Below, piece by piece: positions 23,701 to 29,700 of a stretch of DNA of 64,000 nucleotides. The stretch is from Escherichia coli. Its GTDB lineage: Bacteria > Pseudomonadota > Gammaproteobacteria > Enterobacterales > Enterobacteriaceae. The stretch lies in the NCBI RefSeq assembly GCF_030013205.1, contig NZ_CP122648.1; one strand, 5' to 3'. The position numbers are program-made. Position 1 is the stretch's first letter; every line of letters starts with the position of its first letter.

Positions 23701-26700
23701 GTTGCTCACGGGCTTTGACGCCAAACGGCTAAAAAAACTCTACCTCGGGCGGGTGATCAGAAAGCACAACCTGCTCCAGGCGCTGACCCGCGTCAACCGA
23801 ACCTACAACCACTTCCGCTACGGCTATGTGGTGGACTTCGCCGACATCCGCCAGGAATTTGACGCCACCAACAAAGCCTACTTCGAAGAGCTACAGGCTG
23901 AACTGGGCGATGAAATGGAGCATTACTCCCGCCTGTTCAAATCAGCGGATGAGATTCGCGAAGAAATCGAACATATCAAAGACGTTCTGTTTAGCTTCGA
24001 TACCGAAAACGCGGAAATCTTCACTGACCAGATAAGCCAGATCCAGGACCGGGAAACCGCGCTGGTACTGAAAAACGCGCTGGCCGACGCCCGCAGCCTT
24101 TACAACCTGATTCGCCTCCAGGGCAACACAGAGTTTCTCCAGGCGCTGGATTTCAACAAACTCAACATCCTCTACCGCGAAGCCAGCCGCCGCCTCGACT
24201 TACTCAACCTGAAAGCGGATCTGGAACAGGGTGTTGACCTCTCCGGCCTGCTGAACCGGGCGCTGGAAGAGGTGATCTTTGAATTCCACAAAGTGGGCGA
24301 AGAAGAGCTGGTACTGGCCGACGAGCTGAAAGAGACGCTGCGCCGCACCCGCGAAGCGCTGGCCGCCAACTTCGACCAGCAGGACCCGCAGTTCGTCAGC
24401 CTGAAAGACGAACTGGAGCGTCTGTTTAAGAAAAAGAAACTCAGCGAAGTCACCCAGCAAGAAATGGTTGCGAATATCGGCACACTCAATAAAATTCATG
24501 GCCGCATCAAAGAGCTAAACCGCCAAAACAACCTGCTGCGCCAGAAATACCGGGGCGACGTGAAATACGCGCGTACCCACAAACGCCTGCGCGAGCGCGG
24601 CGGCCTGAGCGAGCCGGAGCGAAAAATCTTCGAAGCACTGCTTAGCGTTAAGCTGGATGCAGATGAAAAAGTGCTGAACAACAGCCAGATACTGAACAAT
24701 GAAAGCTATTTTGAGCGGCATATGGAGTCATGCGTCATCACGCACTTTGAGGATGAGCACCATATCACTCTGACCTCCAGTGCGGTAAGCGACATCAACC
24801 GCCTGATTGTGGCGGAATACCTGAACGAATTTAATACCGGAGCACGAACGTGGTAGAACTGGAATTTAGAGACAAAACCAAAGCCCTGATCGACAGCCTG
24901 AAAAGTATCTGTGCGAACTACGGCCTGGGCAACGACGGTAACGAATTCAAAATTATCACTCAGGCATTCCTGTACAAATTCCTGAACGACAAATTCGCTT
25001 TTGAGGCCAAACAGAAAGATAAAAGTATCGCCAGCGCCGAAAGCTGGGAAGATGCGCTCAGCGCAATGAGCGAAGATCAACTGAAAAAGCTGCAACAGCG
25101 GATGGCCCCGGATACCGCCCGCCTGAAGCCGCACCATTTTATTCGTTACTTGTATAACCGACAAAACGCAGCGGACTTTGCCAGAACTTTTGACGACACC
25201 CTGATGGACATCGCCGCCACCAACAACGACGTCTTCGCGGTCAAAACCGACGGCGGCGCGAAAGTGGTGCTGTTTGAACGCCTCAGCCAGTACATCGCCG
25301 ACGAATCAAAGCGCGATGACTTCTGCCGCGCCATTATCAACAAACTGGCCGATTTCAGCTTTGAACGCATCTTCACGCAGAAATTCGACTTCTACGCCAC
25401 TATCTTTGAATATCTGATCAAAGACTACAACAGCAACTCCGGCGGCAAATACGCGGAATACTACACGCCCCACGCCGTGGCGCGCATCATGGCGGAAATC
25501 CTGGTGCCGAAAGCACAACAGGGCGTGGTGCGCAACGTAAGCTGTTACGACCCGTCCGCCGGTTCCGGCACCTTACTGATGAACGTGGCGCACGCCATCG
25601 GGGAAGATCGTTGCAGCATCTTTGCGCAGGACATCTCGCAGAAATCCTCCAGCCTGCTGCACCTGAACCTGATCCTCAACAATCTGGTGCATTCGATCCC
25701 CAACGTTATTCAGGGCAACACCATTCTGCACCCGTTCCACAAGGACGGCAGCGCGCTGAAACGCTTTGACTACATCGTCTCCAACCCGCCGTTTAAGATG
25801 GATTTCAGCGACTTTCGCGACGATCTTGACAGCAAGGAAAACCAGCAACGTTTCTTTGCGGGGATACCGAAAGTCAAAGCCAAAGCCAGGGACAAAATGG
25901 AAATTTACCAGTTGTTCCTGCAACACATCATCTTCTCGCTGAAACCGGATGGGAAGGCGGCGGTCGTGGTGCCGACAGGCTTTATCACCGCGCAATCGGG
26001 TATTGATAAAGGCATTCGTGAACATCTGGTGAAAAACAAGATGCTGGCGGGCGTGGTTTCCATGCCGTCGAATATCTTCGCCACCACCGGCACCAACGTG
26101 TCGATCCTGTTTATTGACGCCAGCAACAAAGAGAAAGTGGTATTGATCGACGCCTCAAATTTAGGTGAAAAGGTCAAAGACGGTAAAAACCAGAAAACGG
26201 TACTGACTGAAGAAGAAGAGCAGCGCATCTGCGAAGTGTTCAACAATAAGTGGAGCGAAGAGGATTTCTCGGTGGTGGTCAGCTATGACGACATCGCCGG
26301 GAAAAATTACTCGTTCAGCGCCGGGCAGTATTTTGATGTGAAAATTGAATACACCGATATGACGCCAGAACAGTTTGCCGCGAAGATGAAAGGGTTTACG
26401 GAGAACCTGGAGAGTTTGTTTAGCCAGTCGCGCGAGCTGGAAGCCGAGATTAAGAAGCAGATGGCGGGGCTGAAGTATGATAGTTAAAACCTTTGATTGA
26501 ACTTTCAAAAAAAATATCAAGCGGACTAACTCCTCTTCGTAGTAATCCTGAATTCTGGGATAATGGAACTATTCCGTGGTTAAAGACGGAGCAGCTTGGC
26601 GAAAAATATATTTATGAAACGAATGAACATATTTCAGAAGTAGCATTGGAAAAAACAGCGATTCGTCTTTTCCCTGTTAATTCGCTATCAATTGCAATGT

Positions 26701-29700
26701 ATGGCGAAGGTAAAACTCGAGGCAATTTGTCTATCCTGAAAAAATCAATGGCTACAAATCAGGCCTGTTGCAATGTTGAGATTGATTCTGATAAAGCTGA
26801 TTATGAATATGTTTATTATTTTTTAAAGACACAATATGATGAGCTTCGCCAGCTATCTTCCGGTGTTAGAAAAAACCTTAATTCTAACGATATAAAAAAC
26901 TACCCTATTCGTTTGCCATCCTCTCTGGACGAACAACGAAAAATTGCCTGTGTATTAAAAGTATTAGATGACAAACTTGCTCTCAACAACCGCATCAACG
27001 CCGAACTGGAAGCGATGGCGAAAACGCTGTATGACTACTGGTTTGTACAGTTTGATTTCCCTGATGCCGACGGAAAACCGTATAAAACCTCCGGCGGTAA
27101 GATGGAGTATAACGCCACGCTGAAACGGGAAATTCCGGCGGGGTGGAATGACTCCATTCTTGGTAAGTTTATTGAGTTAGATCGTGGCGTTACTTATAGC
27201 AAAGAGGATGTTCGAACTCAGGATGATAAAGATACGATAGGCATTCTTCGCGCTACAAATGTGACGGGAAATAATGTTGATATTGATGATTTAGTCTTCA
27301 TTCCTTCTAGTAGAGTAAACGTTAATCAAATGCTAAATAAATTTGACATATTGATCGTGATGTCAAGTGGTAGTAAGGAGCATGTAGGGAAGAATGGCGT
27401 GTATTATTTCGAAAAAAAACATGCATTTGGCGCATTTTGTTCAAAAATTACACCCGTCAGAAAATACAGATATTTTATAAATACATTCCTGCAATCGAAA
27501 TGGTTTAAGTCTTATATAAACAATCAGTGCTTGGGAACTAATATTAATAACCTGACCAATACGCATATCACTAATTGTGAAATCATATGCCCCACTCCTG
27601 ATGTTGTGGCGTTATTCGAGAATAAAATGATGCCAATTTATAATAAACTGGCATCAAACACTCAAGAGAATAGTCATTTAATCCAACTCCGCGACTGGCT
27701 CCTCCCTCTACTTATGAACGGACAGGTCACGGTCAAATAATCCCCGGCGTGGTTTTGCGAGGCGCATTCCAGATCCGCATTGCGCCGCACTCACCGCAGC
27801 AAAACCGCTTGCCGTTCATAACCGATCGCAGTATCTTTCTCCCGCGCCTGCAAAATCAGGCGTCGGGATTAGCCTCCTGAAAACCGTTACAGGCGACACT
27901 TGACGCACCAGCGTCTTTTTTGTGTCGTGCGTTCGGCTACACCTCAATGGCGGGCCGGGCGGGGGCGTCGCAAGACGCGCCGGTTTCCTGTAACGCCGGT
28001 AAGGCTAACCCCGTCCGGTTCCGCCCCCATGAGATTAGCCTCTCTAGTGGCGGACATAATAAACCGTTACAGGAGACGCCCTATGGCTACAATCCTCATC
28101 TCTGACTGCGATTTACTCGATCTATTGTCCGCTCCCTTCAATGCCACCACGGATTTCACCGTCCTGGCCGACTACTGCGCCCGCTTCGCCGAAACCCTGA
28201 TAGAAACCGACGATCCGGCGCTGCGGCTGGCGCTCTGCGGACGGCTTCACGCGGCTCTTGCGCTATTGCAACCCACGCTGCACGACCCCATCCCGCCGCA
28301 TCTGATTGAAAGCCTGACCGTTGATACCCTTCCCGCCACACCAGAGCACTTTATTTCCGAACCAGATTCCTTGTGCGAATACTGCCTCGCGCTGCTCCAG
28401 CTACTGCTGGAACGTCCAGCAGAGCCAAAAACGGAACAAACCCTGACCGGGCTTCTGTGTGAGCTGGTCTGGAATTTCACGGAAGGACTCAAATCCCCGC
28501 GCTGGCTGCGTACCGCCGACGGCGTAAAATTTATCAGTGAGGTGGCCGCATGATGCAACAGGACTGACATTCCGCCAACATTATTGCGGTGCTGAAAAAG
28601 CGGGGAACGCCTCTGGCGGCACAGAGAAAAACTCATTGCGGAAGCGCTGTAAATATCGCCAGAAATCATCTGGTCCTCAAGGTACTTTGATAGCAAAGGC
28701 AAGCAGGCTGGTTCAGTCCAGTGTTTCTCTTCTTGCATTTTCAGAAATGGGAGGCTGGGAGTCTATCGAAATGGTTCGTCGATATGCTCACCTTGCACCT
28801 AATCACCTTACCGAACACGCACGGCAAATAGACTCAGTCCTGAACCCATCGGTCCCAAATTTGTCCCAGTCAAAAAATAAGGAAGGTACTAATGATGTGT
28901 AACTTATTGATTTAAATGGTGCCGATAATAGGAGTCGAACCTACGACCTTCGCATTACGAATGCGCTGCTCTACCAACTGAGCTATATCGGCCCTGAAAG
29001 GACATGTTCACGAACGTGAATCACGGTGGACAAGGTTAAAACTAACCGGGCGATGCGTCAATGGCCTTGTGAATCAAATGGCTACTTTTGCATCACCCGG
29101 TTTTATTTACGCACGAATGGTGTAATCACCAATGCCGATCCACTTGTAAGTGGTCAGTGCTTCCAGCCCCATTGGGCCACGCGCGTGGAGTTTTTGTGTG
29201 CTTACCGCCACTTCCGCACCCAGACCAAACTGGCCGCCGTCGGTAAAACGCGTAGAGGCGTTAACGTAAACAGCGGACGAATCCACTTCGTTAACAAAAC
29301 GCTGGGCGTTGCGCATATCGCGAGTCAGGATCGCATCGGAGTGTTGCGTGCCGTGTTCACGAATATGGGCGATGGCATCGTCAAGATCGCTGACGATTTT
29401 GACGTTCAAATCTAATGACAGAAACTCATCGTCATACTCTTCCGCTTTAACAGCCACCACCTTCGCGGGGCCTGTCTGCAACTGCGCCAGTGCACCTGCA
29501 TCAGCGTGTAACGTCACGCCACTTTCCGCCATTTGTTTGCTTAATGCGGGCAGGAAACTATCGGCGATGTTTTTATTCACCAGCAACGTTTCAACCGTAT
29601 TACATGTGCTCGGTCGCTGAGTTTTCGCGTTGACGATCACTTTTAATGCTTCAGCGATCTCCGCGCTTTCATCAACGTAAATATGGCATACGCCTATACC

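What the first reader, a model, noticed from the sequence alone, without database searches (positions are those of the whole stretch)
26493..27740. HsdS has a TTG start abutting hsdM and a second TRD resembling the AAC-recognising TRD of EcoKI-type HsdS
The only possible in-frame start for hsdS is a TTG five nucleotides after the hsdM stop, so the usual N-terminal 8-10 residues are missing and translation is probably coupled. The C-terminal TRD (residues about 210-390) contains GVTYSKEDV, LVFIPSS, ILIVMSSGSKEHVGKN and FGAFCSKITP. From memory these track the N-terminal TRD of EcoKI HsdS (GVTYKKEQ, LVFVPKN, IVIAMSSGSKSVVGKS, FGAFCGVLRP), while the N-terminal TRD and central region look unrelated. 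That suggests a shuffled, possibly new bipartite specificity.
Basis: partly seen in the sequence, partly recalled or inferred. Interest (0 to 1): 0.5.

Follow-up and report, generated by a model that had tools for sequence, protein, structure and literature searches.

The report
Type I hsdS with frameshifted start
This is an ordinary E. coli type I restriction-modification specificity gene: its odd TTG start comes from one extra A just after the true ATG start, and its second DNA-reading domain is the one already characterised in the EcoMIII enzyme (RTAC-N4-GTG), not an AAC reader.

Summary
The reading is accurate. TTG at 26493 is the only in-frame start, 5 nt after the hsdM stop. The four quoted motifs exist here and in EcoKI HsdS, and TRD2 is homologous to EcoKI TRD1 (35.7% identity over 143 aa, BLASTP E 3e-25).

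The interpretation needs correcting.

1. The TTG start is not native. Sixteen sibling pig E. coli genomes and strain N3 have AAA where the window has AAAA (26486-26489). Their hsdS starts at ATG 26477 (MIVKPLIEL...), overlaps hsdM by 11 nt and encodes 420 aa. The extra A strands that ATG in a 7-codon ORF, and the TTG has no Shine-Dalgarno. The extra A occurs only in three nanopore-only assemblies; whether it is a real mutation or an artefact is unresolved.

2. HsdS residues 194-415 are identical to S.EcoMIII of E. coli EC958, shown by SMRT sequencing and knockout to specify RTAC(N4)GTG. TRD2 therefore reads GTG/CAC or RTAC/GTAY, not AAC.

3. The system is EcoMIII-family (HsdR 98.6%, HsdM 96.3% identical) in the thrW island, not EcoKI-type.

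4. Shuffling is real but routine: TRD1 occurs in 18 of 5426 genomes, TRD2 in 538, and the combination in 17.

The specificity is probably new but unmeasured. Low interest.

The parts
21758..24856 (+). hsdR, type I restriction subunit (1032 aa)
   Evidence: ORF. Annotated in the near-identical ETEC4070 record. TIGR00348 E 1.4e-76. 98.6% aa identity to EcoMIII HsdR. Closest solved structure is EcoR124I HsdR, E 3.9e-26.
24850..26487 (+). hsdM, N6-adenine methyltransferase subunit (545 aa; NPPF at residue 312). Carries G>A at 25661, giving R271H.
   Evidence: PADLOC MTase_I PDLC03033, 1011 bits. 96.3% aa identity to EcoMIII HsdM. R271H.
26477..26500 (+). Stranded native hsdS start: ATG ATA GTT AAA ACC TTT GAT TGA (MIVKTFD*), now out of frame with the rest of hsdS
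   Evidence: Translation. In siblings and strain N3 the same ATG opens the 420-aa gene MIVKPLIEL.... Anti-SD duplex upstream is -5.5 kcal/mol.
26486..26489 (+). A4 run holding the one extra A (A3 in all intact alleles); it overlaps the hsdM stop codon without changing it
   Evidence: It is the only difference in 1401 nt from K_EC180 and ETEC4071, and the only indel in 64 kb against ETEC4071. Alignment.
26493..27740 (+). hsdS ORF as read (415 aa from TTG), which is codons 6-420 of the intact gene
   Evidence: Pfam Methylase_S twice, E 1.1e-22 and 0.005. No SD before the TTG, -0.1 kcal/mol.
26493..26978 (+). TRD1 (type 'a'), residues 1-162, half-site unknown
   Evidence: 100% nt identity in 18 of 5426 genomes: 17 pig strains plus N3. 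Related to both M. jannaschii S-subunit TRDs (E 4e-19 and 5e-16) and to EcoR124I TRD2 (E 4e-13). Cassette borders about 26466-26961 from the BLAST breakpoints.
26979..27146 (+). Central conserved region (ALNNRINAELEAMAKTLYDYWFVQFDFPD...REIPAGW), the spacer helix and the substrate for TRD exchange
   Evidence: Invariant across five alleles. The recombination breakpoints flank it.
27147..27686 (+). TRD2 (type 'x'), residues 219-398. Identical to S.EcoMIII TRD2 and a remote homologue of EcoKI TRD1.
   Evidence: Residues 194-415 are identical to the EC958 protein WP_000671528.1. The DNA is at >=99% identity in 538 of 5426 genomes. EcoKI similarity.
27687..27740 (+). C-terminal conserved region (LRDWLLPLLMNGQVTVK) and stop codon
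   Evidence: Invariant in all five alleles.
19785..21474 (-). Context: AbiEii/AbiEi toxin-antitoxin pair, divergent from hsdR
   Evidence: Annotation. PADLOC AbiEii E 3.9e-116 and AbiEi E 6e-79. The same pair flanks EcoMIII in EC958.
28917..28992 (-). Context: tRNA-Thr(CGU), thrW, the island attachment site, next to an integrase remnant at 28699-28902
   Evidence: ARAGORN. Annotation.

Best explanation
What it is. The ORF is the specificity subunit of an EcoMIII-family type I restriction-modification system (hsdR-hsdM-hsdS). It lies in the remnant thrW genomic island of a pig edema-disease/ETEC E. coli.

How it works (inferred from established type I biology). HsdS places two target-recognition domains on DNA, held apart by the central and C-terminal conserved helices. 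M2S1 methylates one adenine in each half-site. R2M2S1 cuts unmethylated DNA.

The allele. It is a cassette recombinant:
- TRD1 is a rare type, shared only with strain N3.
- TRD2 and the C-terminus are those of S.EcoMIII.
The site should therefore be [unknown TRD1 half-site]-N(x)-GTG, or less likely -GTAY. It shares one half with EcoMIII's RTAC(N4)GTG and is not AAC-based.

The TTG start. It is secondary. The native gene starts at ATG 26477 and overlaps hsdM by 11 nt, the classic arrangement for translational coupling. In this sequence one extra A in the run at 26486-26489 throws that ATG out of frame.

Consequence if the insertion is real. HsdS can then be made only by inefficient termination-reinitiation at an SD-less TTG. 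The product would lack MIVKP and carry fMet in place of Leu6. Restriction and modification would be lowered together, or lost together.

Shown: the insertion, the allele structure, and identity to S.EcoMIII.
Inferred: the half-site assignment, the expression consequence, and whether the insertion is in the DNA or only in the assembly.
For: Frameshift:
- A3 versus A4 is the only hsdS difference from K_EC180 and ETEC4071.
- All 16 sibling genomes match over 1400 rather than 1401 nt.
- Their hsdS is annotated as 420 aa, overlapping hsdM by 11 nt.
- N3, with the same TRD1, starts the same way.
- Alleles with other TRD1s also start at an ATG overlapping hsdM.
- The intact protein is on 207 contigs; the truncated one is on 3.
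- SD duplex is -0.1 kcal/mol before the TTG and -5.5 before the ATG.

Family:
- Same locus and same neighbours as EC958 EcoMIII.
- HsdR 98.6% and HsdM 96.3% identical to EcoMIII.
- HsdS residues 194-415 identical.

Specificity:
- EcoMIII = RT(m6A)C-N4-GTG, by SMRT sequencing plus knockout (PMC4659465).
- The same motif was found in ATCC 25922 (PMC12679398).

Shuffling:
- Allele matrix a+x, a+y, b+x, c+x, c+z.
- Breakpoints flank the central conserved region.
- Genome counts: TRD1 in 18, TRD2 in 538, the system in 588, of 5426.
Against: - No methylome exists for any strain carrying this allele, so the site is predicted, not read.
- Which EcoMIII half-site belongs to TRD2 is not established. A motif found by kinetics has no inherent orientation, and I found no second characterised allele.
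- Whether the TTG-start form yields functional HsdS is untested.
- The origin of the extra A is unresolved (see rivals).
Confidence: 0.85

Rival explanations
1. The extra A is a consensus error of nanopore-only assembly. The strain really carries the intact 420-aa gene, and the TTG start exists only in the database record.
For: - All three assemblies with the 415-aa form (ETEC4070, ETEC_4077, ETEC_4078F) come from one study that used R9.4.1 reads, Trycycler and Medaka without short-read polishing.
- No PacBio+Illumina genome (K_EC180, W13-16, P15-25) and no short-contig assembly of a public run has it. Run ERR4899634 has A3.
- The extra A sits on both hsdM backgrounds. R271 with A4 is ETEC4070; H271 with A4 is the window and L014. 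R271 with A3 (ETEC4071) and H271 with A3 (ERR4899634) also exist. All four combinations occur, so a real mutation needs homoplasy or recombination.
Against: - ETEC4070 and ETEC4071 are otherwise identical over 164 kb compared. Their coordinate offset stays at 2 nt from 1.0 to 3.99 Mb, so generic assembly noise is very low.
- Eleven other assemblies from the same pipeline read A3 at this site.
- A run of 3-4 bases is shorter than the pore's k-mer and is normally resolved (general knowledge).
- No Dam or Dcm site, and no GTG/CAC, lies next to the run (sequence).
Confidence: 0.45
2. One reading: hsdS natively starts at the TTG with a naturally short N-terminus, and its TRD2 reads AAC as EcoKI TRD1 does, giving an X(N)GTT-type site.
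For: - TTG is the only in-frame start in this sequence.
- TRD2 is homologous to EcoKI TRD1.
Against: - The same allele starts at an upstream ATG in 16 sibling genomes and on 207 contigs.
- The identical TRD2 works in an enzyme whose measured site, RTAC(N4)GTG, holds no AAC or GTT.
- 36% identity does not predict a half-site. EC958 EcoMII reads AAC(N4)CTTT yet has no TRD with meaningful similarity to EcoKI TRD1 (best 17% identity, score 62).
Confidence: 0.03
3. The A-run is a programmed switch. This could be +1 ribosomal slippage of tRNA-Lys on A-AAA, which would restore exactly MIVKPL..., or phase-variable on/off control of hsdS.
For: - A +1 shift at AAA-A would regenerate the wild-type protein (sequence).
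- The extra A appears on two hsdM backgrounds.
- Phase-variable type I hsdS and hsdM genes exist in other genera (general knowledge).
Against: - A run of 3-4 bases is far below the tract lengths that slip at useful rates.
- The next codon, ACC, is not a hungry codon, and no stimulatory SD precedes the site.
- The nearby A8 run (26507-26514) was the same length in the genomes aligned across it, and the 1400-nt matches of the other siblings leave no room for a length change.
- The extra A is unseen outside one nanopore-only study.
Confidence: 0.03

Closest known systems
EcoMIII (E. coli EC958, ST131; GI-thrW type I R-M; RTAC(N4)GTG; Forde et al. 2015, PMC4659465)
   Same: - Same chromosomal island and gene order: AbiEii-AbiEi / hsdR-hsdM-hsdS / ash / hyp / int' / thrW.
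- HsdR 98.6% and HsdM 96.3% identical.
- HsdS central region, TRD2 and C-terminus identical from residue 194.
   Different: - TRD1 is an unrelated cassette, so one half-site and possibly the spacer length differ.
- The start codon is stranded by the extra A.
- HsdM carries R271H.
EcoKI HsdS (type IA, AAC(N6)GTGC)
   Same: The window's TRD2 is homologous to EcoKI TRD1: 35.7% identity over 143 aa, E 3e-25, with shared motifs GVTY.KE, LVF.P, MSSGSK..VGK and FGAFC.
   Different: - The homologous domain is in the C-terminal position, not the N-terminal one.
- The central and C-terminal conserved regions do not align.
- NF007278 scores 72.5 bits against a cut-off of 662.
- HsdM matches EcoKI M only at E 2e-7.
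- The half-site is not AAC.
EcoR124I/II (type IC)
   Same: - Closest solved HsdM (E 5.3e-33, nearly full length) and HsdR (E 3.9e-26).
- The window's TRD1 resembles EcoR124 TRD2 (E 4e-13).
   Different: - The similarity is too low for family membership.
- Gene order is R-M-S in one block.
- The HsdS conserved regions differ.
Methanocaldococcus jannaschii S subunit (PDB 1YF2)
   Same: Best overall solved match to the window's TRD1 and its following helix (E 8.8e-37). It supports the standard TRD-helix-TRD-helix fold.
   Different: It is archaeal and has a longer N-terminal lead-in: query residue 3 aligns to residue 27. No specificity information transfers.

Membership tests
Type I R-M specificity subunit (HsdS) | Two Methylase_S (PF01420) target-recognition domains separated by conserved helical regions | tested here: met
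   Pfam hits at 8-174 (E 1.1e-22) and 215-367 (E 0.005). PADLOC Specificity_I, 638.7 bits. 1YF2 aligns over TRD plus helix.
Type I R-M specificity subunit (HsdS) | Encoded next to hsdM and hsdR | tested here: met
   hsdR 21758-24856 and hsdM 24850-26487 lie directly upstream.
EcoMIII family (GI-thrW type I system of E. coli) | HsdR and HsdM near-identical to EcoMIII, at the same locus | tested here: met
   98.6% and 96.3% aa identity. Same neighbours and thrW junction.
EcoMIII family (GI-thrW type I system of E. coli) | HsdS conserved central and C-terminal regions shared | tested here: met
   Invariant in five alleles. Residues 194-415 identical to S.EcoMIII.
EcoMIII isospecificity (RTAC(N4)GTG) | Both TRDs the same as S.EcoMIII | tested here: not met
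   TRD1 is unrelated to EcoMIII TRD1. Only TRD2 is shared.
EcoKI-type (type IA) HsdS | Family-specific central and C-terminal conserved regions; whole-protein match to the EcoKI HsdS model | tested here: not met
   BLASTP aligns only TRD2 to EcoKI TRD1. The central region has no match. NF007278 scores 72.5 bits against a cut-off of 662.
EcoKI-type (type IA) system | HsdM and HsdR closely related to EcoKI M and R | tested here: not met
   EcoKI M matches at E 2e-7, ranked behind EcoR124 M at 5e-33. No EcoKI R hit.
AAC-recognising TRD | An enzyme carrying this TRD recognises a site containing AAC (or GTT) | tested here: not met
   The identical TRD2 is in S.EcoMIII, whose site is RTAC(N4)GTG by SMRT sequencing plus knockout.
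Type IC (EcoR124I family) | High HsdM and HsdR identity and shared HsdS conserved regions | tested here: inconclusive
   It gives the best solved matches, but they are weak. HsdM is below the TIGR00497 cut-off (147.7 against 242.75) and HsdR is below the TIGR00348 cut-off (258.5 against 284.55).
Phase-variable (contingency) hsdS | A long simple-sequence tract whose length varies between close relatives | tested here: not met
   Only A3/A4 varies, and only in three nanopore-only assemblies. The A8 run was unchanged in the genomes aligned across it, and the other siblings' match lengths leave no room for a change.

The most novel reading that the evidence does not exclude
The extra A is real and arose more than once: it sits on both the R271 and the H271 hsdM backgrounds. 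On that reading, the short A-run inside the hsdM/hsdS overlap is a recurrent target that turns HsdS translation down or off in the pig ST1 O139 clone. That would silence restriction and modification together, for example to admit new plasmids. Residual HsdS would come from termination-reinitiation at an SD-less TTG, or from +1 slippage on A-AAA.
Probability: 0.08. Interest if true: 0.4.

Novelty: new member of a known kind. Interest (0 to 1): 0.15.

Why it matters
It matters modestly.

- Annotation. The record WP_282868291.1 (415 aa, TTG start) is best read as a frameshifted copy of WP_063085366.1 (420 aa, ATG start), not as a natural TTG-start HsdS.
- Specificity prediction. This is a clean example of TRD homology at about 36% identity failing to carry the half-site. 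The EcoKI-TRD1-like domain works in an RTAC(N4)GTG enzyme. An AAC-reading enzyme in the same EC958 genome has no such domain.
- Pig pathogens. The ST1 O139 edema-disease clone carries a private TRD combination of the EcoMIII family. That combination would set its own barrier to DNA uptake. The three published PacBio data sets could reveal the site at no cost.

Nothing here changes how type I systems are understood.

Tried and rejected
- Literature by protein accession and strain name: no methylome data. The genome papers for K_EC180, W13-16 and P15-25 give sequencing platforms but no motifs.
- A second characterised allele, to assign EcoMIII's half-sites to TRDs. I searched motif strings and read the ST101, O111 and APEC methylome papers. 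Nothing at this locus turned up. APEC EC-O119H4 has GGA(N6)GTG, but its genome is not in the collection.
- GF43 gave only a fifth, uncharacterised allele.
- tblastn of EcoKI HsdS against plasmids and a fetch of EC958 60-100 kb were misdirected and uninformative.
- Stepwise decay of the R-M system (hsdS frameshift first, then hsdM R271H). I held this idea while the data looked nested. I dropped it when run ERR4899634 showed H271 together with an intact A3 hsdS.
- Generic nanopore noise as the cause of the extra A. I rejected it as a sufficient explanation because ETEC4070 and ETEC4071 are identical over two 50-kb control regions. A site-specific artefact remains possible.
- Structure prediction and the large protein-database searches were not run. 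They could not settle either open question.

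
Full report
**Where the window comes from.** The 64-kb window is E. coli chromosome. It matches strain ETEC4070 (NZ_CP122676.1, 3963305-4027304) at every base except one, window 25661. The finding lies in a small defence islet next to tRNA-Thr thrW. The order is AbiEii/AbiEi (minus strand), hsdR 21758-24856, hsdM 24850-26487, hsdS 26493-27740, an ash-family ORF, a hypothetical ORF, an integrase remnant, thrW at 28917-28992, then proA.

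**Checking the observation.**
- hsdM ends with TAA at 26485-26487. Five bases (AACCT) follow, then TTG at 26493.
- The nearest upstream in-frame stop is TAG at 26481-26483, and no ATG, GTG or TTG lies between it and the TTG. The next in-frame ATG is codon 69.
- The four quoted peptide strings are in the ORF, and the four strings recalled for EcoKI are in K-12 HsdS.
- The resemblance is real homology. phmmer against PDB 2Y7C gives a domain E of 2.8e-21 (query 213-366, EcoKI 5-159). BLASTP gives E 3e-25. Local alignment gives 35.7% identity over 143 aa with score 228, while all other TRD pairings score 31-71.

**Why the start is TTG.** Seventeen complete genomes carry this hsdS allele. ETEC4070 matches over 1401 nt; the other sixteen match over 1400 nt.
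- Alignment shows a single difference. The window has GTTAAAACC where K_EC180, ETEC4071 and N3 have GTTAAACC.
- In those genomes hsdS is annotated as a 420-aa protein (WP_063085366.1). It starts at the ATG equivalent to window 26477, reads MIVKPLIELSKK..., and overlaps hsdM by 11 nt.
- Alleles with unrelated TRD1s also start at an ATG overlapping the end of hsdM.
- In the window, the extra A leaves that ATG heading a 7-codon ORF, MIVKTFD*, ending at 26500. The body of hsdS opens at what is normally Leu6.
- Five residues are therefore missing, not 8-10.
- The region before the TTG has no anti-Shine-Dalgarno complementarity (-0.1 kcal/mol, against -5.5 before the native ATG). Any HsdS from this template would depend on reinitiation after hsdM or after the remnant ORF terminates.
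- The hsdM stop codon is unaffected.

**Is the extra A real?** The 415-aa protein occurs in only three assemblies. The intact 420-aa protein is on 207 contigs.
- The three are ETEC4070, ETEC_4077 (5,190,196-bp chromosome) and ETEC_4078F (18,853-bp contig, L014).
- All three come from one study that used R9.4.1 nanopore reads, Trycycler and Medaka, with no short-read polishing (PMC10151945).
- Genomes finished with PacBio plus Illumina (K_EC180, W13-16, P15-25) have A3.

Against random error:
- ETEC4070 and ETEC4071 are identical over two control 50-kb regions.
- They differ only by this A across the 64-kb window region.
- Their coordinate offset stays constant over 3 Mb.
- Eleven other assemblies from the same pipeline read A3.

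Against a simple real mutation, all four combinations of the extra A and the hsdM SNP exist:

| hsdM residue 271 | A-run | Where |
|---|---|---|
| R271 | A3 | ETEC4071 |
| R271 | A4 | ETEC4070 |
| H271 | A4 | window, L014 |
| H271 | A3 | run ERR4899634 |

. I leave this at roughly even odds. Either way, the TTG is not the native start.

**What TRD2 reads.** E. coli EC958 carries the same islet. Its HsdS (WP_000671528.1) is identical to the window's from residue 194 to the C-terminus. That span is the end of the central region, all of TRD2, and the C-terminal helix.
- That system is EcoMIII. SMRT sequencing of EC958 and of an isogenic knockout assigned it RT(m6A)C-N4-GTG (PMC4659465). The same motif was reported for ATCC 25922.
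- TRD2 therefore reads either GTG (CAC on the other strand) or RTAC/GTAY, not AAC.
- Both candidates keep a methylated A followed by C, as in A-A*-C. That fits distant homology with a changed first base. I slightly favour the 3-bp CAC, but I could not find a second characterised allele to settle it.
- A control shows how little 36% identity predicts. EcoMII in the same EC958 genome reads AAC(N4)CTTT, yet has no domain meaningfully similar to EcoKI TRD1 (best 17% identity).

**Family.**
- HsdR and HsdM are 98.6% and 96.3% identical to EcoMIII.
- Against solved structures they are closest to EcoR124I, and only distantly (E 3.9e-26 and 5.3e-33). EcoKI M matches at E 2e-7.
- Both fall below the NCBIfam hsdR and hsdM cut-offs. 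The EcoKI HsdS model hits only TRD2, at 72.5 bits against a cut-off of 662.
- This is not an EcoKI-type HsdS. It is an EcoMIII-family HsdS containing one EcoKI-TRD1-like cassette.

**Shuffling.** Five alleles at this locus form a combinatorial matrix:

| Strain | TRD1 | TRD2 |
|---|---|---|
| window and siblings | a | x |
| N3 | a | y |
| EC958 | b | x |
| RM9088 | c | x |
| GF43 | c | z |

.
- The BLAST breakpoints fall on either side of the invariant central region. The TRD1 cassette is about 26466-26961 and the TRD2 cassette about 27147-27684.
- Of 5426 complete E. coli genomes, 588 carry the system, 538 carry TRD2-x, 18 carry TRD1-a, and 17 carry the a+x combination. All 17 are from pigs or wild boar, and include O139:H1 ST1 edema-disease strains.
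It is also the normal way type I specificities diversify.
- TRD1-a resembles both TRDs of the M. jannaschii S subunit and EcoR124 TRD2. Its half-site is unknown.

**Verdict.** The feature is a new TRD combination within a characterised type I family. It was recorded with a one-base insertion that strands its real start codon. Nothing about its mechanism departs from standard type I biology. The useful outputs are:
- a corrected gene model;
- a falsifiable site prediction that shares one half-site with RTAC(N4)GTG;
- the pointer that existing PacBio data can read the site directly.

Noticed in passing
window 25661 (hsdM codon 271): This G>A is the single base at which the window differs from the RefSeq ETEC4070 record over 64 kb. 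It gives HsdM R271H (SSSLLRLNL becomes SSSLLHLNL), between SAM motif I (DPSAGSG, residue 234) and NPPF (residue 312). Arg is present in every other allele examined. The His variant also occurs in ETEC_4078F contig L014, in a contig longer than 1 Mb (probably ETEC_4077), and in run ERR4899634, so it is a real polymorphism. Its effect on function is unknown.
   Followed up: yes
window 25661 and 26486-26489, compared with L001, L007, L014, L018: All four combinations of R271/H271 and A3/A4 exist among near-identical genomes. That requires a recurrent event, recombination or a site-specific artefact. This is what keeps the origin of the extra A unresolved.
   Followed up: partly
L014 (ETEC_4078F contig, 18,853 bp, labelled plasmid) = window 9893-28746: The contig is a circular permutation of the chromosomal segment from yagU through paoABCD, MFS, hydrolase, LysR, AbiE, hsdRMS, ash and hyp. 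Window 28746 is joined to 9893 through about 2 nt of microhomology, with no long repeat. It could be a tandem duplication, an excised circle, or an artefact of a 99-contig Flye assembly.
   Followed up: partly
window 26507-26514: An A8 homopolymer lies inside hsdS codons 5-8 (L-S-K-K-I-S), 14 nt after the TTG. It was the same length in the genomes aligned across it (K_EC180, ETEC4071, N3). It is a more likely slippage or sequencing-error site than the A3/A4 run, yet it is the shorter run that varies.
   Followed up: no
L016:26323-27627 (EC958 EcoMII hsdS): EcoMII recognises AAC(N4)CTTT, but neither of its TRDs resembles the AAC-reading TRD1 of EcoKI (best 17% identity). The same half-site is read by unrelated TRD sequences.
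   Followed up: yes
window 19785-21474 (-) and 28608-28992: An AbiEii/AbiEi toxin-antitoxin pair diverges from hsdR. An integrase fragment and an HTH pseudogene abut thrW. Together they form a decayed GI-thrW defence islet with the same layout as in EC958.
   Followed up: partly
window about 2810-3397 (ecpA), about 1143-1368 (ykgL), about 62977-64000 (tagH): In the near-identical ETEC4070 and ETEC4071 records, ecpA and tagH are annotated with internal stops and ykgL as frameshifted. ykgL is annotated the same way in EC958, so that one is likely real.
   Followed up: no
literature: APEC EC-O119H4 (CP162393; PMC11963381): This strain has a type I motif GGA(N6)GTG / CAC(N6)TCC. If its thrW-locus hsdS carries TRD2-x, that would assign GTG to TRD2. 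The genome is not in the searchable collection.
   Followed up: no
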